From Xenococcaceae cyanobacterium (GTDB taxonomy: Bacteria > Cyanobacteriota > Cyanobacteriia > Cyanobacteriales > JBFRWF01), in contig JBFRWF010000102.1 of assembly GCA_051439465.1 (NCBI GenBank), forward strand, positions 1-44,427: a stretch of 44,427 nt of DNA, written 5' to 3'. Below are positions 7,663 through 44,427 of this stretch, piece after piece. The notes under the pieces are model-generated. The model saw nothing but the letters and a program-made list of their open reading frames with translations. It searched no databases and was not told where the DNA came from. The first letter of the stretch is position 1. Each line of letters starts with the position of its first letter. A program made the translations under genes and the position numbers.

Positions 7663-8916
7663 TCATTTTTTATTATAATATCGAGCAGCTTGCGACCTAT
7701 TAAAATGAAGTAATTTTTCATCTCCTAGCTGCTTTATCCCTGTAGGTTTGACTGGTTTCACCCCGAGAGAATTTAGTATTTCCCTAGCAACTGCTTTCCC
7801 TAAAAGTGGGGGGACAGAATTTCCGACTTGCCGAAATCCGTGCCATTTGGTAACATGAAATCTAAACCAATCGGGATAGGAGTGTAGCCGCGCTGCTTCC
7901 CGCACAGTAATACAACGCGGTCTTTCTGGATGAATCGGTCTTGGAGAAGTGTAAGCACCGCGATTAGTATCTGTTCCCGCCCTGAGAGTGTTGCATAACC
8001 CTTCGGTAGATAGCCGATAAAATCGACTTGTTTCCTCTCTTTTTCCCGGCTCTGTATGAGAAAATCTTTGAATAGATTGAGGAGTATGTTTTGTTCGCTT
8101 ACTTGAGGTGAGCATACTATAATTGTAATAGCGATCGTAGGAGTAATCATCCTCAAAAGAGTAAAGACCGCGCATTTGTCCAGCATAATAACTTGGGTTT
8201 CCATACTCTGTTATTACCCAGTCTCTTTCCAGTAGTTCTGGGTAATTCTCAACTTCCGGTAGGTCGCCAATTGCTTCCGAAACTGTCGGAGTTATAGGAA
8301 GGGTTAAGCTGTCAGTACTGTTTAAATCTGGTTGAGTCAGAGGTTGGGGATATTTGGGTAAGTTAAGACCTTCTCTACATCCGAGCAGAAATAACCTTTC
8401 CCGGTTCTGAGGGACTCCATAATAAGCAGCATTAAGGACTTGATAGTTCTCCTCGACTTCATAACCGTTGGCTCTAAAAGAGCTGATTATTTCTTTAAGA
8501 AACTGCTGATGTTTTCCGATGGCGATTCCTGGGACATTCTCCATCACAAAGAACTTAGGTTGTAGCTCCAATGCCAAGCGCATGAAGTGAAAGACAAGGG
8601 AATTCAGAGGATCGTCGAGGTGGCGTTTTCCCATCAGGGAAAAGCCCTGACAAGGTGGACCGCCAAAGACAACATCAATCTTGCGATCGCCAATTAAAGA
8701 CAAGTTCCTAATTTCTTCCCCTGTCGTATCAGTAACACTCCTGCACAAAATAGACCAGAAGGGAAAGTTAAACTCATGAGTAGCACAGTGGATCGGATCG
8801 AGTTCCACCGCAGCCAGCACGTTAAACCCTGCTTGTTCAAAGCCGAGAGTCATTCCGCCTGCGCCAGCAAATAAATCTACAGCGATTGGTCTTTTCTTGC
8901 TTTTCCCTCTAGCCAT
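7663..8916 (-). CDS. dcm: DNA (cytosine-5)-methyltransferase. Solitary: no adjacent restriction endonuclease
   Basis: Canonical C5-MTase motifs are present: I (DLFAGAGGMTLGF), IV (GGPPCQGFS), VI (ENV), VIII (QNRERLFLLG), X (GNSVPPLL). The last 9 codons (AARYYNKK) are encoded by a partial copy of the 180-bp repeat head. Confidence 0.9.
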   Translation of the reverse strand: MARGKSKKRPIAVDLFAGAGGMTLGFEQAGFNVLAAVELDPIHCATHEFNFPFWSILCRSVTDTTGEEIRNLSLIGDRKIDVVFGGPPCQGFSLMGKRHLDDPLNSLVFHFMRLALELQPKFFVMENVPGIAIGKHQQFLKEIISSFRANGYEVEENYQVLNAAYYGVPQNRERLFLLGCREGLNLPKYPQPLTQPDLNSTDSLTLPITPTVSEAIGDLPEVENYPELLERDWVITEYGNPSYYAGQMRGLYSFEDDYSYDRYYNYSMLTSSKRTKHTPQSIQRFSHTEPGKREETSRFYRLSTEGLCNTLRAGTDTNRGAYTSPRPIHPERPRCITVREAARLHSYPDWFRFHVTKWHGFRQVGNSVPPLLGKAVAREILNSLGVKPVKPTGIKQLGDEKLLHFNRSQAARYYNKK

Positions 8917-33737: not shown

Positions 33738-33793
33738 CCAAAACTCAGCCACCATTTAATTTAGGCATGGTTCAAAACAGAGTAACACGCTTA

Positions 33794-33860
33794 GAGGGGG
33801 AGAGAGGGAGAGGGGGAGAGGGGGAGAGGGGGAGATGGGGAGATGGGGAGATGGGGAGAC
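33794..33860. repeat. Heptamer/octamer STRR array (GGGGAGA/GGGGAGAT)n
   Basis: gggggagagggggagagggggagatggggagatggggagatggggagac read directly. Confidence 0.85.
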
Positions 33861-34898: not shown

Positions 34899-37800
34899 AT
34901 GAAAAATTTCAGTAGTCCAGAACAAAAGTTAGAACAGCAGCGCTCAACCTCAAGTCATAAGTCACCACAAGAGCGTGTAGATGAATGGATTTCTGGTAGC
35001 GCGGTAAGTCCAGAACTGACCGAAAAATGGCTAGAGCAGCAGTCCGACAAAAAGGAGATCGCCCGCCTGCTAGCCTGGAAATATTACAGTCACACTCCTG
35101 GCTGGTACGTGCGCTCTTGCGATCCACACACGGGAATGCGTGGGGATTTTGGACAATTCAAGCCAGACTCACCGCTTCAATTCCCCGACTCTGACAAGCC
35201 CTGTAAATACTTCACTTTCCCCAAAGGCAGGGGGACAGAGGCAATCTACAGCGTGATGACGCTTAACGAGTGGATCTCAATCAGCGAGCGGGTTGGGGTA
35301 GACATAGAAACCAAGGACATTGATGAATCCCGCGATGATTTAGGTTTCTGGCGTTGGGTAATGAATCACCCTGAGATTCCCATAATCATTACTGAGGGAG
35401 TTAAGAAACAGGGTTGTCTGCTAACTTGGGGGTGGGTGGCGATCGCCCTTACCGGAGTATGGAACGGACAGCAAAAGCGCAAACTGCACCCGTCCCTTAA
35501 ACCTTTCATTGTGCCTGGACGCGTAGTTTATGCTTGCTTTGATGCCGATGTGGTAGTCAAGGTCGAGGTAGAACGCGCCCTCAAGGTTTTTGGGCAGGTC
35601 GTCCGGCGCGAAGGTGCCTCAGTTTTTATTATTAACTGGAATTTAGAACTGGGCAAGGGCTGCGATGACTTGATTGTCAATGAAGGCTATAATTCATTTG
35701 AAGAGGCTCTCCATAATGCCACCCCTTATAGTGAATGGCTCAAGTCTCTCAAAACTGAACAGCCCAAGAAAAAAGGCTCACTGGTAGCTGCTGATGTTAT
35801 TGGTGGCAGCGGCGGTGGTAATAACAACGGTAATGGTGGTGGTGGGAACAATGGCGGTGATGGCTCTGGTGGCGATCGCTCCCGAGAGAACAACGAGAAA
35901 AAGAATCCAGAATGGCGCTATAAAAATGTTGCCGACGCACTAGAACTGCCTTTTTCTGATTGCGTTACTGCTGGAAGCTTCGATGGGTATGTCTACCGAG
36001 AAATATTTGGGGCCGGAACTGAAAATTGGGCAGCGATCGACACTGCCTTTTACCACAACACAGAGCAGGGCTACTGGCAGCATCAGGAAGATAAATTCAT
36101 TCACAAACTGATCTGCGATGCCTCCCAAAAGGCTTACAAGCTCAAATCCTCGAAATTAGAGGGCTGGTGGGCTACCTACCCCTACGAAACAAACAGCTCG
36201 TCCGAGTCTGCCTTTAAGTTTGTTCGCAAGCGCTTGGAGTTAGATAACTTACCGTCCAATGTACATTTGAGGGCATTCAATAATTGTACCGTGGATATGA
36301 GGACGGGTCAAACCATGCTCCACGACCCCGCCCATTTCCTAACTAGCCAGGTTCCTTACGATTACTACCCTAACCGTCCATGTCCTGAGAATTTCTACAA
36401 CTTTATTTGTAGTTCCTTCGGGGAAGATTTACTCTGTGTCATCCGGGCGTTTACCTCAATGTTTCTAGATCCGACGGCTCCCTATGGGCGATTTCCTCAT
36501 CTGTTTGGGCCATCAGGTTCAGGTAAGGGAGTGATGGGGCGATTGTGGAGTTCTATGTATGGAACCGTAGGCTCGGCTTCCCTGGCCAGTTTCGAGGAGC
36601 TGGCATCTGCAGAAGGACGGCATCAGTACCTCACTGGGAAATCTATCTGCGGCATTCCCGATGTCGGCGGTTATGTCAAGGGACTACGCGCTTTCTACGA
36701 GCTTATAGACAATGGTGAGATGTCGGGCCGGGCACTGTTTAACCCTACTGGCTATCAGAAGCTTTGGAATATGCGTTTCTGGGTGGCTTCTGTTGACCAC
36801 CTGCAAATTGAGAACGCCGGGGATGGTTGGGCTCGCCGCGCATACCCCATTCCTACTAAGGGCAAGCCAGATAATGTTGACCCCAACTTGAGGGTGAAGT
36901 TAGAAGCAGAGATAGGAGACATTATTTCATGGGCTTTGGCTATGCCCAGAGAAGAGCGCGATCGCATTCTTTTGGGTGAGCCCACCAACTCTCGAGTCAT
37001 CAATGCCATCACTGATGCCGCTCTCTACGGTGACAGTACTAAGAGCTTTGTCGATCTGTGCCTGCGCCCTTCTGACAATCCTGGCAATGTTCCCAATCAC
37101 ATGCTGCACTCCTGGTATGTCGCCTACTGCGACAAGCACGGCTATACACCGATGGGGATGTCCAAGTTCATCTCCCACCTCAAAACCATCCTGCCGAAAA
37201 ACCATGTCCAGCGCGGTTGGTCGCCAATGACTAATGGCAAGCGCTCACAGGTTTCGGCTCACTGGGAATATATTGTATCTCTTCGGGGGGCTCTTGTAAC
37301 TATAAACAATGGTGCTGACAACGGCTATCAGGGTTCAGCTAATCAAGAGCCCGAGTGGAAGTGCATGAAATCTAAATGTGTGGAAGGAGGGTTATTTGAG
37401 TTTGAGGATTTTTGGAATCCACCAGAACCACCTGGGCCACCTCAACCACCTCAGCCACCTCAGCCACCTGAACCTGATGATGGTGGTCCCGGCGGTGGTG
37501 GTCCTGATAATAACCCTCCGACTGCCGATCCTGCTCCAGATTCGGATTCAAAATCGCCAGAACCACCTAGCAGTAAGGGTGTGCAGGGTGTACATGCTGT
37601 ACAGGGCAGCTCAGAAAATCCCGAATCGCTGAAACAACGCAGTGGTGCGGGTGTGCAGGGTGTGCAGGGTGGATCGCACAGAGATCCGGACTTTGAAAAA
37701 ATATCAGTAGCTGTTGTAGAAAAAAATGAGGTGGCGCAAACAGTAGAAAGGGTAGAAAGCCCCCTGTCCACCCCTGTACAGTTACCAGTTACCAGTTATC

Positions 37801-38948
37801 AGTTGCCAGTTGGCAGTAATCAGTTAGCAGTTGACAGTAATCAGTTAGCAGTTGAAAAGTCAGATAACGAACCTTCTTCAGTTACCAGTTACCAGTTACC
37901 AGTTACCAGTGAGACTCCCGACTCTGACGGAGTTCCGAATTCAGAGAAGGTAGATTCAACTGTGTCCCACGGTGACAAGACTTCAGATAACCAACCTTCT
38001 TCAGTTACCAGTGACCAGTTATCAGTGACCAGTGAGACTCCCGACTCTGACGGAGTTGCTCATTCAGAGTTGGTAGACCCCACTAAAAACCAGGTAACTG
38101 GTAACTGTTCACTGGTAACTGAAGAGGTAACTGGTAACTGTTCACTGGTCACTGAAAAGGTAACTGGTAACTGTTCACTGGTCACTGAAAAAGAGCTGGT
38201 AACTGATTACTCCACTTATCCGCATCTAACCAGCAATGATGTCCGAGCTTGTCGAAACCGGGCTAGTCGGTGCAAAAATCAGATGCTTGCCTGTACTAAC
38301 CGAGATGAGCTGGCAGAATTTCGAGCTAGTGCTGGATTCTCTCAGAGTGAGATTGATTGGGTTTGGGAAAGGCTAACTGACAGTGAAAAGTTTGGCGTAC
38401 ATAAAGCGGTTAAGCAAGAGCAGCTAACTTTACCGGGTTTTGAGAAATCTGAAAATGGTAACTGGGAACAGGTCACTGAAGAGGTAACGGGTAACTGGGA
38501 ACTGGTAACTGAAACTGAGCAAACTGCTCCGGTGTCAGAGTCAACTGAAAATGCCTCAACTGACCCAGAACAGATTGAAAGTACCGACGAGATATTCTCA
38601 TGGAACGAGGTAATTGAAGATATGAACCAGCACCTGAAGCTACTTTGTTGGAGAAAGGCTGACGGTTCTGCTTATCTCCAGCACAAGTACAACTTGAATT
38701 GCTGCCCTAATTTAAGCGAGTCAGAAATGTCTGAGTTCTATAAATTCCAGACTGAACGCTTGGCGGGATATAAGGTAGGCGACCGCGCGATTGTTGAGAA
38801 TTATGACCCAAAACTAAATGGTCGGGTAGCAGAGGTGGTATCAGTCGAACCTGGCAACATCATTAAAGTTCAGTTTGATCACAACCGCCGAAAGATGCAC
38901 ATAGAAATTGCACTTTACGTAACACTCTTCTACGGAAAAACTCAATGA
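34899..38948 (+). CDS. Plasmid-type replication protein: N-terminal TOPRIM-like (DUF3854) domain plus P4-family primase C-terminal NTPase domain (cyanobacterial CyRepA-like), with a ~400-aa STRR-derived low-complexity insert
   Basis: TOPRIM-like acidic motifs IIITEGVKKQGCLLTWGWVAIALTGVWNG and VVYACFDADVV. Walker A FGPSGSGKGVMGRLW in a P4-primase-like C-terminal domain. Low-complexity blocks follow (GGSGGGNNNGNGGGGNNGGDGSGG; PPEPPGPPQPPQPPQPPEP; VTSYQLPVTSYQLPV; VTGNCSLVTEEVTGNCSLVTEK) before a conserved C-terminal ~120 aa. RBS GGAGAGGAGAG. Confidence 0.75.
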   Translation: MKNFSSPEQKLEQQRSTSSHKSPQERVDEWISGSAVSPELTEKWLEQQSDKKEIARLLAWKYYSHTPGWYVRSCDPHTGMRGDFGQFKPDSPLQFPDSDKPCKYFTFPKGRGTEAIYSVMTLNEWISISERVGVDIETKDIDESRDDLGFWRWVMNHPEIPIIITEGVKKQGCLLTWGWVAIALTGVWNGQQKRKLHPSLKPFIVPGRVVYACFDADVVVKVEVERALKVFGQVVRREGASVFIINWNLELGKGCDDLIVNEGYNSFEEALHNATPYSEWLKSLKTEQPKKKGSLVAADVIGGSGGGNNNGNGGGGNNGGDGSGGDRSRENNEKKNPEWRYKNVADALELPFSDCVTAGSFDGYVYREIFGAGTENWAAIDTAFYHNTEQGYWQHQEDKFIHKLICDASQKAYKLKSSKLEGWWATYPYETNSSSESAFKFVRKRLELDNLPSNVHLRAFNNCTVDMRTGQTMLHDPAHFLTSQVPYDYYPNRPCPENFYNFICSSFGEDLLCVIRAFTSMFLDPTAPYGRFPHLFGPSGSGKGVMGRLWSSMYGTVGSASLASFEELASAEGRHQYLTGKSICGIPDVGGYVKGLRAFYELIDNGEMSGRALFNPTGYQKLWNMRFWVASVDHLQIENAGDGWARRAYPIPTKGKPDNVDPNLRVKLEAEIGDIISWALAMPREERDRILLGEPTNSRVINAITDAALYGDSTKSFVDLCLRPSDNPGNVPNHMLHSWYVAYCDKHGYTPMGMSKFISHLKTILPKNHVQRGWSPMTNGKRSQVSAHWEYIVSLRGALVTINNGADNGYQGSANQEPEWKCMKSKCVEGGLFEFEDFWNPPEPPGPPQPPQPPQPPEPDDGGPGGGGPDNNPPTADPAPDSDSKSPEPPSSKGVQGVHAVQGSSENPESLKQRSGAGVQGVQGGSHRDPDFEKISVAVVEKNEVAQTVERVESPLSTPVQLPVTSYQLPVGSNQLAVDSNQLAVEKSDNEPSSVTSYQLPVTSETPDSDGVPNSEKVDSTVSHGDKTSDNQPSSVTSDQLSVTSETPDSDGVAHSELVDPTKNQVTGNCSLVTEEVTGNCSLVTEKVTGNCSLVTEKELVTDYSTYPHLTSNDVRACRNRASRCKNQMLACTNRDELAEFRASAGFSQSEIDWVWERLTDSEKFGVHKAVKQEQLTLPGFEKSENGNWEQVTEEVTGNWELVTETEQTAPVSESTENASTDPEQIESTDEIFSWNEVIEDMNQHLKLLCWRKADGSAYLQHKYNLNCCPNLSESEMSEFYKFQTERLAGYKVGDRAIVENYDPKLNGRVAEVVSVEPGNIIKVQFDHNRRKMHIEIALYVTLFYGKTQ

Positions 38949-38964
38949 AACCCGATCAATCATT

Positions 38965-40299
38965 ATGCTTAGACAACTCGATTTGTGCTCAGGAGTCGGA
39001 GCAGGATTCCCCCTTGCAGGGTTCAAACTCGGAGGTTTTGAACTGCTCGGTCTCTGCGAAATTGACCCCTACTGCCAAGACATCCTCGGTAAACGATTCC
39101 CCGAAGTTACAATCTTCAAAGATGTCCAAGAACTTAAAGAAGGCGGAGTCTACAAATCAGGAGAAATCGATATTATCACAGCCAGCCCACCTTGCCAGCC
39201 CTTCTCAGTCCAAGGGAAACGGCTCGGAGCTGACGACGAAAGAGACTGCATACCCGCAGTCATGGAAGCGATCGCAAGCATTAAGCCTAGATTCTTTGCA
39301 ATTGAGCAAGTGCCAGGGCTGCTTACGTGCCCTTTCAAACCCGGATACGGTTCAGGCTCCTACTTCAAAATCCTACTCGGAGCCATTTTCGAGTGCGGGT
39401 ATGGGGTGGAATGGCAAAATATTGGATCAGGAAACTTTTCCTCTCCCTTCCCTAGAAGAAGGTTACTGCTGGTTGGCGTCTCCAACAGCGTTAAGCTCGA
39501 CTGGGAACTCCCGACCCCCTGGGCTGAGCAAGTTAGAAAGTCAGTTGAAGGAAATGGTAGTCCTAAAATCAGGGGAGTGCTTGAATCCGAGGTGGCTAGA
39601 AGTTTGGTTGGGTATGCCGCTGAACTGGCTCAACCCATTGGAATTACGTCCGGCAATGGAGTTGTTAGAAGACAACGTGAAGCAGCAGGAAATTCTCTCG
39701 ACCCAAGAGTTGCTGCGATCGCACTCCAAAGAATCATCTATCTTAATTCGGAAGTGACCAAATACACATCTCAATCCAAAGACAAGCTCCGCCACGACAC
39801 CGACGAATCTCATTCACCTGAACCTGAAAATAATGGTCGGTCACCTTCGGTGCGCCTTCGGCGAGCGCAAGATGATGATTGGCTTGATAATTCTCCAACT
39901 TCTGCTGAATCTAATTCTAGCCCACTGACTGGATCACCTCAACATCAGGAAAGTAAGGAGCGGTCACCTTCGGTGCGCCTACGGCGAGCGCCTGAACTGC
40001 TCCAAGTTAATCCGCACTCACTCAAGCCGCACCCGCGCAATCGGTCGATCTATGGTAAAGACGAAGATATCTCAGACCTGGTAGAGCAGATCCGGCGCAC
40101 TGCATGGATCAAGCCACTTGTGGTGAATAAACAGCACCAGATTATTAGTGGTCATAGGCGCTGGAAAGCAGCACTTGCGCTGGGACTGGAAACTGTTCCT
40201 GTGGAGGTAAGGGAGTTTGAGTCTGAGCTAGATGAACTTGAAGCCTTACTGCTAGAGAACCAATACCGGGAATCGTTCAGCGTTACCAAATGCCTATAA
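38965..40299 (+). CDS. Fusion protein: compact DNA (cytosine-5)-methyltransferase domain (N-terminal ~270 aa) plus a ParB/Srx-like nuclease/NTPase N-terminal domain (C-terminal ~100 aa), joined by a linker with a duplicated ERSPSVRLRRA motif
   Basis: C5-MTase motifs I (DLCSGVGAGF), IV (ASPPCQPFS), VI (IEQVPG), IX-like (RGVLESEVARSLVGY), X (AAGNSLDPRVAAIALQRI). ParB signature in NPHSLKPHPRNRSIYG...LVEQIRRTAWIKPLVVNKQHQIISGHRRWKAALALGLETVPVEV (GxRR box). Confidence 0.75.
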   Translation: MLRQLDLCSGVGAGFPLAGFKLGGFELLGLCEIDPYCQDILGKRFPEVTIFKDVQELKEGGVYKSGEIDIITASPPCQPFSVQGKRLGADDERDCIPAVMEAIASIKPRFFAIEQVPGLLTCPFKPGYGSGSYFKILLGAIFECGYGVEWQNIGSGNFSSPFPRRRLLLVGVSNSVKLDWELPTPWAEQVRKSVEGNGSPKIRGVLESEVARSLVGYAAELAQPIGITSGNGVVRRQREAAGNSLDPRVAAIALQRIIYLNSEVTKYTSQSKDKLRHDTDESHSPEPENNGRSPSVRLRRAQDDDWLDNSPTSAESNSSPLTGSPQHQESKERSPSVRLRRAPELLQVNPHSLKPHPRNRSIYGKDEDISDLVEQIRRTAWIKPLVVNKQHQIISGHRRWKAALALGLETVPVEVREFESELDELEALLLENQYRESFSVTKCL

Positions 40300-40329: not shown

Positions 40330-40845
40330 ATGATGACTAGAGGTAGACCAGCAAAAGTCAAAAAAGAAGATGTAATAGCAGCTTGCGACCAACTTGTTCA
40401 AGAGGGACAGAATGTTACTGTAAAAAATGTCCTGGGGATGGTTGGAGGCTCAGCGAGAGAAGTTTCCCCGATAGTTAGAAAATATAAGGCATCGGCTGGA
40501 ATACCAGAAGCTCTCGAAGATATCGAGAATGATGATAATAATGGTGCTCTATCTGTAACAGAACCAGAAGAGATTGCCGACGTTCAGAAAGAAACAAGTC
40601 ACTCAACATCAATTAATCCACGACAAACCATGTCGGCTCAGGCAAAGGAGCAAGCGCAGTTAGAAGCAGCCCAGCATACTTTGGCCAAGAATTACTTCAT
40701 CGCCACTCAAGATTACGAAACACCTGGGTTAAAAGAGCAGGTTAATCAGGGACTAGAAGAGATATATAAACGTGCTAATGCTGAAATGATGGATAACCTG
40801 TTCCCAAAGGATCTACAGGAAAAACTAAGGACTCCCAAGACGTAA
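40330..40845 (+). CDS. KfrA-N-like DNA-binding protein (plasmid-associated)
   Basis: N-terminus MMTRGRPAKVKKEDVIAACDQLVQEGQNVTVKNVLGMVGGSAREVSPIVRKYK resembles the KfrA N-terminal HTH domain (GRP..VT...V..AAD.L...G..PTV..VR..LGGGS...I.P.L). An acidic/helical tail follows. Confidence 0.5.
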   Translation: MMTRGRPAKVKKEDVIAACDQLVQEGQNVTVKNVLGMVGGSAREVSPIVRKYKASAGIPEALEDIENDDNNGALSVTEPEEIADVQKETSHSTSINPRQTMSAQAKEQAQLEAAQHTLAKNYFIATQDYETPGLKEQVNQGLEEIYKRANAEMMDNLFPKDLQEKLRTPKT

Positions 40846-42064: not shown

Positions 42065-42354
42065 CCCCACATTTACAGGAGGTAATGTGTTTGAGTATGC
42101 TGGCCACAATCTCCATGTCTGTTTGATGACATCTTGGTTTGATCATTTGAACTTTGAGCGTAAATAGTGCGGCAGATAAAATCGTTAGTTGGTAAAGTAC
42201 CTTTGGGTGTTCCGTAAGGCAAATGGTCACAGTCAGATTGCGATCGCCCAACCAAATCTTGTTTGAAACCACCAAACTGCTCGCGCAAAAAACAAGATAT
42301 CAATATCAAGCTAATTGGCAGAAACCAAAACAGCCGCCAAACCCTCATTCCGTA

Positions 42355-43227
42355 TTACTTCCTCCCTCCGAGGCCACCATAGGAAGGTTTCATCAAAACC
42401 CTGCTAGAAACATAGATAACCATCGCACTAGCACCAAAAAACTGCATCGGATCTCGACCAGCATAGCGATACAGACTTAAAAGCAATATAGGAAGCAGCA
42501 CAAACGGAGTCAAATCAAAAAACCTCTTATGCTCAGGAGGCTTTTTACTCCTAATCCCCAAAAACTTCCCAGCCACCACCTTATTAGCGATCGCCGGACA
42601 ACCCCCAGACTCCTGCTGAAACTGAGCAATTTCAGCCTGACTTAAACTACCACCCCTCTTGCTAGTAGAGGTTTCCATAATATCTTTTATGTCCTCAGCG
42701 GAAAGTGGATCCAATTCCAATGCTGGGAACTTATTCAGAATATCCTTTTCCGGCTGAGTCCGCCCAAACAAAACAATCGGAAAGAAGCGATCGGCAAACA
42801 GAGCTTTCTCATGCTCCTTATTCAACCAGCGTCTCAGGTGAACATTGACGCTAGGGGCATCATCAACAATAAAAAATACTGTTTCCTTTTCCAAGAAATC
42901 GCTTATCTGCTCTTGGAGCATCCTTGACGACATACTTTTTCCATCAAGAGTCTCAGTATCAAGTCCAAGAGTAACAGCCAGCGACTCCATCACATCCCTC
43001 AGAGTTCCTGGTTCAAGCAGCACAGCCAAGAAACCTTGAGATCTTATCTCCTGAATAACAAACTGAGCCAGGGTAGACTTACCATAACCAGCATCACCAA
43101 CAACATAAACACCCTCACCAGCCAGCAAAGAAGCCACTATCCTATCCCGCTCGTTGACACGATAGCATTTCCCAGTAACCTTAGTTAATACTTGCTGAAA
43201 CTCTGCTTCTAAACTAGGCGATCGCAT
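42355..43227 (-). CDS. P-loop NTPase (AAA-like ATPase domain) with C-terminal hydrophobic/TM segments
   Basis: Walker A VVGDAGYGKSTLAQ, Walker B VFFIVDDA, C-terminal TM helix FDLTPFVLLPILLLSLY. Divergent from the YdjM-like gene (36-bp gap). Atypical codon third-position composition (T/G-rich on the coding strand). Confidence 0.6.
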   Translation of the reverse strand: MRSPSLEAEFQQVLTKVTGKCYRVNERDRIVASLLAGEGVYVVGDAGYGKSTLAQFVIQEIRSQGFLAVLLEPGTLRDVMESLAVTLGLDTETLDGKSMSSRMLQEQISDFLEKETVFFIVDDAPSVNVHLRRWLNKEHEKALFADRFFPIVLFGRTQPEKDILNKFPALELDPLSAEDIKDIMETSTSKRGGSLSQAEIAQFQQESGGCPAIANKVVAGKFLGIRSKKPPEHKRFFDLTPFVLLPILLLSLYRYAGRDPMQFFGASAMVIYVSSRVLMKPSYGGLGGRK

Positions 43228-43263
43228 CCCCTTTCATCAGAAACCATAAAAACAATTTTAACA

Positions 43264-44289
43264 ATGATGGGACCAACACATGCAACTTTAGGAATACTAG
43301 CCACAAGCCTAATCCTCAAAACAGTAGACCCAGTAATCCTAGGAATCGGAGCAATCAGCGCACTACTACCAGATATCGACAGCAGCAAAAGCACCATAGG
43401 AAGGCTGCTACCTGGGATATCAAAAAGAATAGAAAGAAGAGTCCCCCACAGAACAGCAACACACTCATTCTGTGCCATCGCCCTAATAGCACTTCTATCC
43501 GGAGCACTAAGCATACTCTGGAAACAAGGAGCAGCAGCACTACTCATCGGCTTCACCATCGGAGGAATATGCGGAGACTTAATGACAGCCAGCGGAGTAG
43601 AACTAGCATGGCCATGGTACCAAACAGCCTTCGTATTTCCAGGGAATCCCCAACTGCGATTCATCACAGGAAGAAAAGCAGAAATAGCAATAATCACAAT
43701 AATATGGATGATAACAATATGGAGCCTAAACATAGCCAGTAACGGAGGCGCAATCAGAGTACTGAAACAAGCAATGGGAACCCCCTCCGTAGCAGTAGAA
43801 TTCTTCAACGAACAATCCGGGTCTGCAATTGTATACACACAAGTAAAAGGATGGAGAGAATCAGATAGAACCCCAATCAATCAGAGATTCAGAATCATAG
43901 AAGCCAACAAAAGCTCATTCCTGCTGCAAGACGAACAAGGAAGACTGCACAGAGCAGCAGAATCAGGAGAAGTAGAAATAATCATCCAAAGAATGAGAAC
44001 AAAAACAGGAGCCACAATCCGACAAAAAGTTACAACAATCCAACTAGACGACCAGCCAGTACTCAAGACAATAAAAAAATACAAAGCCGATGAAATATAC
44101 ATCAGTGGAACCCTGGAAATAGATGACCTTGAAGACTTAAAATTACCAGAACCAGCAGACCAATATTGGGCAGTAAGAAAAACAGAAACAAAACTAGAAC
44201 TAGATAACGCACGACCTGAACAACTAAAATCCCTACAAGACAGATATGGAACCGGAACCCTAGAAATAAAACTAATAAATGGTCAATAG
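43264..44289 (+). CDS. Membrane-bound metal-dependent hydrolase-like protein (YdjM/DUF457 family, LexA-regulated type) with a long C-terminal soluble extension
   Basis: N-terminus MMGPTHATLGILATSLIL...ISALLPDIDSSKSTIGRLL plus further TM helices and His-containing loops match the YdjM family. Extreme NNA/NNC codon usage (A-rich, T-poor coding strand), unlike neighbouring genes. Confidence 0.6.
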   Translation: MMGPTHATLGILATSLILKTVDPVILGIGAISALLPDIDSSKSTIGRLLPGISKRIERRVPHRTATHSFCAIALIALLSGALSILWKQGAAALLIGFTIGGICGDLMTASGVELAWPWYQTAFVFPGNPQLRFITGRKAEIAIITIIWMITIWSLNIASNGGAIRVLKQAMGTPSVAVEFFNEQSGSAIVYTQVKGWRESDRTPINQRFRIIEANKSSFLLQDEQGRLHRAAESGEVEIIIQRMRTKTGATIRQKVTTIQLDDQPVLKTIKKYKADEIYISGTLEIDDLEDLKLPEPADQYWAVRKTETKLELDNARPEQLKSLQDRYGTGTLEIKLINGQ

Positions 44290-44367
44290 GGAACAGGGAG
44301 ACCTGACTGCCTGACAGAAGTACTCGAAAGCTAACAAGAACGGCATTGTTGAGAGTTCAGCCCCGGC

Positions 44368-44419
44368 GCGATCGCGCTTCTCCTATCCCAGGGCGATCGC
44401 GCTTCTCCTATCTCAGGGC
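44368..44419. repeat. Tandem 26-bp direct repeat x2, each containing a HIP1 octamer (gcgatcgcgcttctcctatc[c/t]caggg)
   Basis: Read directly at the window end. Confidence 0.8.
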
Positions 44420-44427
44420 GGTCTCGG

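What the first reader, a model, noticed from the sequence alone, without database searches (positions are those of the whole stretch)
42240..44300. ~2-kb island with strong strand-specific A/C enrichment at synonymous sites across two divergently transcribed genes
In the plus-strand gene 43264-44289, codon third positions are overwhelmingly A or C (runs such as gga ata cta gcc aca agc cta atc ctc aaa aca gta gac cca), and T is scarce. In the adjacent minus-strand gene 42355-43227, third positions are T or G on its own coding strand. That is again A/C on the window plus strand. So the bias follows the DNA strand, not transcription or codon preference, and it stops at the neighbouring GST gene, which looks compositionally ordinary. 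Relative to a typical composition this corresponds to C-to-T plus A-to-G changes on the minus strand. Both are deamination-type changes expected for DNA that spent time single-stranded, for example a rolling-circle plasmid/phage intermediate or an editing/hypermutation process. Alternatively the segment was acquired recently from a donor with extreme strand skew. The encoded proteins are a P-loop ATPase and a YdjM-like (LexA-regulon-type) membrane hydrolase.
Basis: partly seen in the sequence, partly recalled or inferred. Interest (0 to 1): 0.6.

Follow-up and report, generated by a model that had tools for sequence, protein, structure and literature searches.

The report
Strand-skewed two-gene cassette on cyanobacterial plasmid
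The last 2.1 kb of this cyanobacterial plasmid contig holds two intact genes whose silent sites are almost all A or C on one DNA strand whichever way the gene points, which is the footprint of long-term damage to one strand and is rare and unexplained at this scale in bacteria.

Summary
At codon third positions, plus-strand A+C is 0.85 in ydjM (43264-44289, +) and 0.75 in the ATPase gene (42355-43227, -). The other 30 ORFs of the contig give 0.42-0.59. Against synonymous recoding with the contig's codon usage, z = +14 and -8. Non-coding spacers inside the island are also skewed, at 0.70-0.72. Positions 1 and 2, the catalytic motifs and the protein divergence rate are ordinary.

The two genes are orthologues of a widespread cyanobacterial plasmid operon (ATPase -> YdjM -> T4CP-like). 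Homologues elsewhere have normal composition, so the bias is not intrinsic to the family. In 117 of 118 loci the pair is co-directional. Only here is the ATPase inverted, and it is flanked by a 10-bp HIP1-centred inverted repeat.

The silent-site spectrum fits C->T and A->G on the minus strand, plus some purine->T. That points to long-term asymmetric mutation filtered by selection, and not to a single editing burst.

The source of the asymmetry is unresolved. I slightly favour evolution on a replicon with a long single-stranded stage, followed by recombination into this plasmid. A local in-situ process is the main rival. A second locus (L069) shows alternating extreme skew within the same operon.

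The parts
42240..44300 (.). Skew island: plus strand rich in A and C (minus strand rich in G and T) at silent and non-coding sites
   Evidence: Sliding windows; per-gene codon-position counts; 4-fold and 2-fold sites; recoding test and spacers
42355..43227 (-). AAA_22 P-loop ATPase with a C-terminal hydrophobic tail. It is the orthologue of the first enzyme gene of the conserved plasmid operon, and here it lies on the strand opposite to ydjM.
   Evidence: Pfam AAA_22 E=1e-9; tblastn 30-37% identity over 75-94% of its length to plasmid 'ATP-binding protein' genes; Walker A (G47, G49, K50) and D122 conserved; orientation unique among 118 loci; coding-strand AC3 0.245
43264..44289 (+). YdjM-family membrane metal-dependent hydrolase with a C-terminal soluble domain. 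It is the orthologue of the second gene of the operon.
   Evidence: Pfam YdjM E=1e-22; 32-36% identity over 99% of its length to plasmid homologues; invariant H6, D37, D39, H62, H67 and D105 retained; AC3 0.85, the highest of 785 ORFs of at least 200 aa in 165 related loci
42239..42248 (.). Left arm of a perfect 10-bp inverted repeat (TGCGATCGCC, i.e. HIP1 plus 1 nt on each side). It coincides with the left edge of the skew.
   Evidence: HIP1 positions; boundary
43217..43226 (.). Right arm of the inverted repeat (GGCGATCGCA). It overlaps the ATPase start codon. An inversion between the two HIP1 palindromes would restore the canonical ATPase -> YdjM order, with a TTG start.
   Evidence: sequence read. 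The inversion itself is inferred, not shown.
42248..42354 (.). Non-coding stretch 3' of the ATPase gene, A+C 0.70
43228..43263 (.). 36-bp spacer between the two divergent start codons, A+C 0.72
44368..44420 (.). 25-bp tandem repeat containing HIP1 (2.1 copies) at the very end of the contig. It lies outside the skewed stretch and is the probable cause of the assembly break. Its function is unknown.

Best explanation
The island is a 2.1-kb two-gene cassette. It is a rearranged copy of the ATPase and YdjM genes of a widespread cyanobacterial plasmid operon.

Its silent sites and spacers sit at the equilibrium of a strand-asymmetric, deamination-type mutation pressure on the minus strand: amino to keto bases, meaning C->T and A->G, plus some purine->T. 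Purifying selection has kept both proteins intact. I hold this level at about 0.85.

This is the footprint of DNA whose minus strand has been single-stranded again and again over evolutionary time, as for the displaced strand in rolling-circle or strand-displacement copying or transfer. This step is inferred, at about 0.6.

My favoured scenario, at about 0.4, is that the cassette acquired this composition on a replicon or element with a long single-stranded stage. It was then recombined into an ordinarily composed CyRepA-type plasmid, with junctions at or near HIP1 palindromes. The confidence figure given for this explanation refers to this full scenario.

The ATPase inversion, probably between the two HIP1 sites, predates the equilibration of the skew, because the skew runs unbroken through the inverted segment.
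For: Mutation and not codon selection:
- The same plus-strand bias appears in two oppositely oriented genes and in two non-coding spacers.
- Amino-acid usage shifts in opposite, predicted directions. In YdjM, V and F are down and I and K are up. In the ATPase, I and A are down and V, F, S and G are up.

Selection-filtered and long-term:
- Positions 1 and 2 are near normal and catalytic residues are conserved.
- The window's proteins are not more divergent than their unskewed nearest relative L086.

Deamination-type spectrum: see the 2-fold ratios and 4-fold composition. Single-stranded DNA is known to be far more prone to C deamination, and rolling-circle replicons carry single-sign skew (PMC3269016).

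Not family-intrinsic.

Favouring import or recombination:
- The skew edges coincide with the ends of the cassette, and GST 180 nt away is normal.
- In L069 the same operon carries co-directional genes with alternating extreme skew and intragenic transitions, which looks like a recombination mosaic.
- Skew patches also occur in unrelated genes (L043).
- Operon genes are no more prone to skew than other ORFs.
- In the L064 clade, lineages differ in the direction of their private substitutions: L065 has GT>AC 96 against AC>GT 36, and L064 is balanced at 54 against 56.
Against: - No donor was found. None of 165 related loci is skewed throughout. Small CyRepA plasmids (pAQ1 and a Geminocystis 5.2-kb plasmid) are unskewed. 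The operon is absent from phage and viral collections.
- No HUH Rep, relaxase, integrase or att repeats lie in or next to the island.
- The skew is nearly saturated, so an import would have to be recent, yet no relative above 40% identity exists in the databases searched.
- GC content and HIP1 density in the island match the host contig.
- A replicon with a high mutation rate should also speed protein divergence, and that is not seen.
- The island lies at the end of a MAG contig, so physical linkage to the rest is unverified.
Confidence: 0.4

Rival explanations
1. In-situ local process. The minus strand of exactly this interval is chronically single-stranded in the plasmid itself. Possible causes are a stalled D-loop or strand-displacement start to the right of ydjM (near the terminal 25-bp repeats), or a strong leftward transcript forming R-loops (antisense to ydjM, sense to the ATPase) that ends at the left HIP1. 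Deamination would then accumulate locally. Occasional segment inversions would explain the sign flips seen in L069.
For: - The skew is saturated with no sign of amelioration, and no donor exists.
- Host-like GC and HIP1 density.
- The L064 lineage is at substitution equilibrium with its skew, while its sister L065 moves the other way, locally in the ATPase-YdjM-T4CP part.
- The polarity switch in L069 at about position 4000 has the sign expected at a bidirectional origin.
- The window shows an inverted segment with continuous skew, and L069 shows canonical order with flipped skew. Together these fit inversion toggling in a regionally skewed stretch.
- A tandem repeat that could be an iteron array lies at the right edge.
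Against: - As far as I know there is no bacterial precedent for kb-scale asymmetry of this amplitude generated in place.
- L069 would need sources of opposite polarity within 7 kb, or two inversions.
- No promoter-like site on the minus strand was found at the right edge.
- Operon genes are not over-dispersed in skew.
- The edges coincide with the cassette ends.
Confidence: 0.3
2. Assembly chimera. The last 2.2 kb belongs to a different, uniformly skewed replicon from the same community and was joined to this contig in error.
For: - The island is the terminal 2.2 kb of a MAG contig that ends in a tandem repeat.
- The composition changes abruptly at 42240.
Against: - No repeat longer than the 8-bp HIP1 is shared at the junction.
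- GC and HIP1 density match the rest of the contig.
- Even if true, this only relocates the phenomenon and does not explain it.
Confidence: 0.1
3. Selection on the sequence itself. Examples are throttling ydjM through rare codons (ATA, AGA, CTA, GGA), or selection for unstructured A/C-rich RNA or single-stranded DNA.
For: ydjM uses ATA 21/40, AGA 16/20 and CTA 19/36. All three are rare in the other genes of the contig.
Against: - The ATPase shows the complementary bias and not the same one.
- Non-coding spacers are equally skewed.
- Amino-acid usage shifts as a mutation pressure predicts.
- More than 140 homologues show no such codon choice.
Confidence: 0.07
4. A single recent hypermutation or editing burst on single-stranded DNA or on an RNA intermediate (APOBEC/ADAR-like, or similar to a diversity-generating retroelement, DGR).
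For: The pattern is strand-coordinated and deamination-type.
Against: - Replacement sites are spared and the ORFs and catalytic residues are intact.
- Protein divergence is not accelerated.
- There is no deaminase, reverse transcriptase or template repeat.
Confidence: 0.03

Closest known systems
Strand asymmetry of animal mitochondrial DNA (H strand single-stranded during strand-displacement replication)
   Same: One strand is enriched in keto bases through C->T and A->G. The effect is strongest at silent sites. Genes on opposite strands carry complementary codon bias (like ND6 against the other mitochondrial genes). The amplitude is comparable: AT skew at 4-fold sites is +0.63 to +0.86 and GC skew -0.4 to -0.5. 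The comparison values come from my own knowledge and from PMC3269012 and PMC3269014 as listed.
   Different: Here the skew covers only 2.1 kb of a contig of at least 44 kb. No replication mode is known. The keto strand is dominated by T here and by G in L069. No gradient could be demonstrated.
Rolling-circle plasmids and single-stranded DNA phages (whole-replicon, single-sign skew; T-rich single strand)
   Same: The skew is single-sign and independent of gene orientation, with T dominant on the putatively single strand. Rolling-circle replication makes one whole strand 'leading' (PMC3269016).
   Different: No HUH Rep, double- or single-strand origin, or phage genes were found. The skew is not replicon-wide. 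The operon family lives on large plasmids with normal composition and is absent from viral collections.
Bacterial leading/lagging-strand GC and AT skew
   Same: The same base classes are involved: G and T on one strand, A and C on the other.
   Different: Chromosomal skew spans whole replichores and is several-fold weaker. The rest of this contig shows none. Many cyanobacteria lack replication skew altogether (PMC7198777, abstract as listed).
Transcription-associated strand asymmetry (deamination of the non-template strand)
   Same: C->T on a strand that is exposed when the duplex opens. It could give sharp borders at the limits of a transcript.
   Different: The two genes are divergent yet share one DNA-strand bias, so ydjM would need a dominant antisense transcript. 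Known amplitudes in bacteria are small (own knowledge).
Conserved cyanobacterial plasmid operon: DNA-binding protein, AAA_22 ATPase, YdjM hydrolase, TrwB/DUF87-like NTPase (e.g. Synechocystis pSYSX, Anabaena cylindrica pANACY.03, Stanieria pSTA7437.03)
   Same: Both island genes are full-length orthologues with their motifs conserved.
   Different: The ATPase is inverted (1 of 118 loci). The downstream T4CP-like and other operon genes are absent from the contig. The composition is extreme. The best identity to any relative is only 39-40%.

Membership tests
Cyanobacterial plasmid ATPase-YdjM-T4CP-like operon | AAA_22 ATPase homologous over its full length, with Walker A and B motifs | tested here: met
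Cyanobacterial plasmid ATPase-YdjM-T4CP-like operon | YdjM-domain hydrolase with the conserved C-terminal domain and the invariant His/Asp residues | tested here: met
Cyanobacterial plasmid ATPase-YdjM-T4CP-like operon | ATPase directly upstream of ydjM on the same strand | tested here: not met
   117 of 118 loci are co-directional; the window is the single exception
Cyanobacterial plasmid ATPase-YdjM-T4CP-like operon | TrwB/DUF87-like NTPase and further genes downstream | tested here: not met
   No tblastn hit anywhere in the window. The contig ends 138 nt after ydjM, so genes beyond the end cannot be excluded.
Replicon with a single-stranded DNA stage (rolling-circle plasmid, ssDNA phage, strand-displacement replication) | Silent-site spectrum of C->T and A->G on one strand, independent of gene orientation | tested here: met
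Replicon with a single-stranded DNA stage (rolling-circle plasmid, ssDNA phage, strand-displacement replication) | Skew extends over the whole replicon | tested here: not met
   Only 42240-44300 is skewed; the other 42 kb are ordinary
Replicon with a single-stranded DNA stage (rolling-circle plasmid, ssDNA phage, strand-displacement replication) | HUH Rep or relaxase gene and a nick site nearby | tested here: not met
   Pfam scan of all large ORFs found none. The sequence beyond the contig end cannot be tested.
Replication-associated leading/lagging skew | Replichore-scale skew with a sign switch at origin and terminus | tested here: not met
Enzymatic hypermutation burst (APOBEC/AID-like clustered mutation, ADAR-like editing) | Changes hit all codon positions; protein damaged or fast-evolving | tested here: not met
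Enzymatic hypermutation burst (APOBEC/AID-like clustered mutation, ADAR-like editing) | A deaminase encoded nearby | tested here: not met
   None among the Pfam hits in the window
Diversity-generating retroelement | Reverse transcriptase plus a template/variable repeat pair with adenine-specific changes | tested here: not met
   No reverse transcriptase and no repeat pair. The changes are not adenine-specific.
Integrated mobile element or genomic island | Flanking direct repeats (att), an integrase or transposase, a tRNA target | tested here: not met
   Only HIP1 palindromes lie near both edges.
Integrated mobile element or genomic island | Foreign GC content or oligonucleotide signature | tested here: not met
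   GC is 0.44-0.45 against 0.46 for the contig. HIP1 density is 1.5 per kb against 0.9 per kb.
Transcription-associated asymmetry | The keto-rich strand is the non-template strand of the dominant transcript | not testable with these tools
   This needs strand-specific RNA data. The promoter scan was not informative.

The most novel reading that the evidence does not exclude
Cyanobacterial plasmids may harbour a local mutational regime generated in place. A kb-scale segment, bounded by HIP1-type palindromes and able to invert, would be kept with one strand chronically single-stranded (a persistent D-loop or R-loop, or a nick-primed displacement). Its silent sites would then be driven to mitochondria-like amino/keto asymmetry while the neighbouring DNA stays normal. 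The window (inverted ATPase, continuous skew) and L069 (canonical order, flipped skew) would be two snapshots of the same process.
Probability: 0.25. Interest if true: 0.8.

Novelty: new variant of a known kind. Interest (0 to 1): 0.55.

Why it matters
Strand asymmetry this strong is textbook for mitochondria and single-stranded DNA viruses. It is not described for a 2-kb patch inside a bacterial plasmid.

If the patch was imported, it points to an unsampled class of cyanobacterial replicons or transfer intermediates with a long single-stranded stage. It would also make silent-site amino/keto skew a usable tracer of such ancestry in plasmid mosaics.

If it is generated in place, it reveals a local source of single-strandedness (an origin, an R-loop or a transfer nick). 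It would also reveal a local mutation regime in polyploid cyanobacteria, whose replication is poorly understood.

In practical terms, such patches distort codon-usage and horizontal-transfer detectors. They also create long spurious ORFs on the strand that is poor in A.

Tried and rejected
- Family-intrinsic composition: rejected, because more than 140 homologues have normal AC3.
- Polarising substitutions with close relatives of the window: not possible. The best relative, L086, has 39% identity and is unskewed. Consensus-based amino-acid polarisation at conserved columns had too few sites: 5 against 3 and 8 against 9.
- Accelerated protein evolution: not seen. The window is closer to the family than L086 is in 148 of 156 (YdjM) and 89 of 107 (ATPase) comparisons. 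An earlier impression of a long branch reflects a deep lineage and not a faster rate.
- Patchiness of the skew inside the ATPase gene: by my own rough chi-square it is only marginal (p about 0.06), so I do not rely on it.
- att-like direct or inverted repeats around the island: only the HIP1 palindromes were found. The terminal 25-bp repeat and the left junction sequence occur nowhere else in the window.
- Search for a donor: no pervasively skewed locus among 165. Small CyRepA plasmids, Calothrix NIES-4101 plasmid2 and Crinalium pCRI9333.02 have no comparable island. There are no phage or viral relatives.
- Operon-specific propensity to skew: rejected (sd 0.054 against 0.052, Levene p = 0.62).
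- Defence-system assignment: only a weak mad8 hit.
- Rfam and tRNA scans: empty.
- More DNA beyond the contig end: no other contig encodes these proteins.
- Literature searches found no description of such islands or of this operon.
- Accessions guessed for the small Synechocystis plasmids were not in the collection.
Full report
**What the window is.** The 44,427-base window is a complete contig of a MAG labelled 'Xenococcaceae cyanobacterium'. It looks like a plasmid.
- It carries a 1349-aa DUF3854 + D5_N primase-helicase of the CyRepA type, 59% identical over the N-terminal 734 residues compared to the Rep of Crinalium pCRI9333.02.
- It also carries a C5 methyltransferase fused to ParB, a KfrA-like protein, and many accessory genes.
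- HIP1 (GCGATCGC) occurs 40 times.

**Check of the observation.** The claim holds and is stronger than stated.
- Plus-strand A+C in 500-nt windows is 0.58-0.66 from 42251 to 44250. The window-wide mean is 0.506 (sd 0.040), and nothing else exceeds 0.59.
- At codon position 3, plus-strand A+C is 0.75 for the minus-strand ATPase gene (42355-43227) and 0.85 for the plus-strand ydjM (43264-44289). Thirty other ORFs give 0.42-0.59. Positions 1 and 2 are close to ordinary.
- Recoding the two proteins 20,000 times with the contig's codon usage gives 0.476 (sd 0.026) and 0.474 (sd 0.029). The observed coding-strand values are 0.850 and 0.245, so z = +14.2 and -8.0.
- At 4-fold sites the plus strand reads A .69 C .19 G .06 T .05 in ydjM and A .52 C .26 G .11 T .12 in the ATPase gene. 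The other genes read A .24 C .25 G .20 T .30.
- The two non-coding stretches inside the island are equally skewed (0.70 and 0.72). The flanks are not (0.43 and 0.55).
- The edges lie at about 42240 and about 44300. GST, 180 nt to the left, is ordinary.

**What the genes are.**
- Pfam confirms an AAA_22 P-loop ATPase and a YdjM hydrolase.
- tblastn against PLSDB shows that both belong to a gene pair found on many cyanobacterial plasmids, including Synechocystis pSYSX, Synechococcus elongatus plasmids, Anabaena, Nostoc, Stanieria and Gloeocapsa.
- In annotated records the order is: a DNA-binding protein, the ATPase, the hydrolase, a TrwB/DUF87-like NTPase, then further ORFs. All are co-directional and often overlap.
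- Scans of GTDB genomes and JGI metagenomes gave 243 and 389 relatives, and I kept 160 loci.
- In 117 of 118 loci that hold both genes, the ATPase lies directly upstream on the same strand. The window is the only exception.
- The inverted segment is bracketed by a perfect 10-bp inverted repeat centred on HIP1: 42239-42248 and 43217-43226, the latter overlapping the ATPase start codon. Inversion between these palindromes would restore the canonical order with a TTG start. This is an inference. Any two HIP1 sites form an 8-bp inverted repeat, so the support is modest.
- The rest of the operon is not on the contig.

**The bias is not intrinsic to the family.**
- Homologues have ordinary composition. 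Coding-strand AC3 is 0.460 (sd 0.056, n = 83) for YdjM and 0.489 (sd 0.065, n = 61) for the ATPase. The window lies at z = +6.9 and -3.8.
- Among 785 ORFs of at least 200 aa in the first 165 fetched loci and the window (the whole-plasmid record L084/L085 left out), the window's ydjM has the highest AC3. The next is 0.73.
- The nearest relative, L086 (39% identity), has the canonical order and no skew.

**Mutation or selection?** Three points argue for a strand-specific mutation pressure and against codon selection.
- The two genes have complementary codon preferences, yet they share one bias when read on the plus strand.
- The spacers share the bias.
- Amino-acid usage has drifted in opposite, predicted directions. 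In YdjM, V (z = -2.7) and F (-2.6) are down, and I (+2.0) and K (+2.8) are up. In the ATPase, I and A are down, and V, F (+2.9), S (+3.6) and G are up.

The pressure has been filtered by selection over a long time.
- Position 2 is unchanged, and position 1 is shifted only in ydjM (z = 4.4), partly through synonymous Leu, Arg and Ser choices.
- All invariant residues are kept.
- The proteins are not faster-evolving than L086.

A single editing or hypermutation burst is therefore rejected.

**Spectrum.**
- At 2-fold sites, plus-strand A/(A+G) is .95 and .84, and C/(C+T) is .70 and .67. The baseline is about .6 and .4. On the minus strand this means C->T strongly favoured and A->G moderately favoured.
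- At 4-fold sites the plus strand is also purine-rich (.63-.75). Some purine->T change on the minus strand is therefore needed as well.
- Amino-to-keto conversion of both A and C on one strand is the chemistry of deamination, which is much faster in single-stranded DNA (PMC3269016).
- The closest natural parallels are the mitochondrial H strand and the single strand of rolling-circle replicons and ssDNA phages (own knowledge).

**Related loci with skew.**
- L069 (Synechococcales MAG) carries the same operon with all genes co-directional but with alternating extreme skew:

| Gene in L069 | 4-fold composition (coding strand) |
|---|---|
| Gene 1 | A .38 C .40 |
| ATPase | G .59 |
| YdjM | G .64 |
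| T4CP-like | C .57 |

  - Some of the transitions fall inside genes.
  - This excludes codon usage and simple transcription or replication polarity.
  - It looks like a recombination mosaic, or like a segment that spent time inverted.
- L043 has a similar G-rich patch in genes of a type I restriction-modification region.
- Operon genes are no more variable in AC3 than other ORFs (sd 0.054 against 0.052). The phenomenon therefore seems to be a rare property of segments (1-2% of ORFs) and not a property of this operon.
- In the L064 clade (77-83% nucleotide identity), private substitutions are balanced in L064 (54 against 56, at AC3 about .33). In L065 they are strongly directional: GT>AC 96 against AC>GT 36. 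That bias is confined to the ATPase-YdjM-T4CP part. Skew in this module is therefore gained, kept or lost differently in close relatives.

**Where did the asymmetry arise?** This is not settled.
- For import from a replicon with a long single-stranded stage:
  - the skew edges coincide with the cassette ends;
  - L069 is a mosaic;
  - patches occur in unrelated genes;
  - single-stranded replicons are the only established source of such amplitudes.
- Against import:
  - no donor was found;
  - no Rep, relaxase, integrase or att site is present;
  - GC content and HIP1 density are host-like;
  - the skew is saturated with no close relative in the databases;
  - protein evolution is not accelerated.
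- An in-situ source remains a serious rival. Candidates are a stalled displacement loop primed to the right of ydjM, or an R-loop-forming leftward transcript. Inversion would account for the flipped segments.
- Because the island is the last 2.2 kb of a MAG contig that ends in a tandem repeat, a mis-join cannot be excluded without reads.

**Verdict.**
It is not supported as an editing event, and the att-site idea is not supported.
- The thing is a new variant of a known kind, namely mutational strand asymmetry: a kb-scale, mitochondria-like skew island on a rearranged plasmid operon.
- Probabilities: mutational asymmetry with purifying selection about 0.85; single-strandedness as the cause about 0.6; import about 0.4; in-situ origin about 0.3.

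Noticed in passing
window 4478-7177 (+): An 899-aa ORF that is a full-length homologue of the eukaryotic major vault protein (Pfam Vault repeats E=5e-70, MVP_shoulder 8e-53, Vault_2/3/4), on a cyanobacterial plasmid-like contig.
   Followed up: no
window 38965-40299 (+): A C5 cytosine DNA methyltransferase fused to a ParB N-terminal domain. It sits directly after the CyRepA-type replicase (34899-38948) and before a KfrA_N protein (40330-40845). A second C5 methyltransferase lies at 7663-8916.
   Followed up: no
window 37779-38511: Dense arrays of heptamer repeats (CAGTTAC / GGTAACT, up to 18 copies, with 21- and 33-bp super-periods) inside the 3' part of the replicase ORF. They could be coding repeats or iteron-like sites.
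   Followed up: no
window 7212-7563; 1322-1377; 33793-33859: A 190-bp tandem duplication (1.9 copies, 98% identical) and two octamer arrays, GGGGAGAC x7 and AGAGGGGG x8.4.
   Followed up: no
window 43209-43880 (-): A 223-aa ORF antisense to ydjM. It most likely arises because the minus strand here is poor in A and so has few stop codons, which shows how skew islands create spurious ORFs. The same probably applies to L069 2750-3232 (-), which has no homologue in any fetched locus.
   Followed up: partly
L069 2750-10300 (JANMHS010000063.1, Synechococcales MAG): The same operon with co-directional genes whose silent sites alternate between extreme C/A-rich and extreme G-rich. 4-fold G is .59-.64 in the ATPase and YdjM genes, and C is .57 in the T4CP-like gene. 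A 3-kb insert of normal composition lies between them.
   Followed up: partly
L043 2941-4645 (-) (Synechococcaceae MAG SM2_3_2): Two adjacent ORFs beside a restriction-modification region have 4-fold G of .49-.65, while their co-directional neighbours are normal. Strand-skew patches are therefore not limited to the ATPase-YdjM operon.
   Followed up: partly
L064/L065/L066/L072 (Brunnivagina and Calothrix clade): Close relatives of the operon differ in the direction of their private substitutions. L065 has G>A 42 and T>C 35 against C>T 16 and A>G 15, and the bias is confined to the ATPase-YdjM-T4CP part of a 6.5-kb module that sits in unrelated flanks.
   Followed up: partly
L011, L014, L016, L021, L022, L024, L026, L067, L076 (MAG HOU_bin.0041): One cyanobacterial MAG carries at least nine copies of the ATPase-YdjM operon, four of them on a single 149-kb contig. 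Synechocystis pSYSX carries two. The module is highly paralogous, which would favour recombination mosaics.
   Followed up: no
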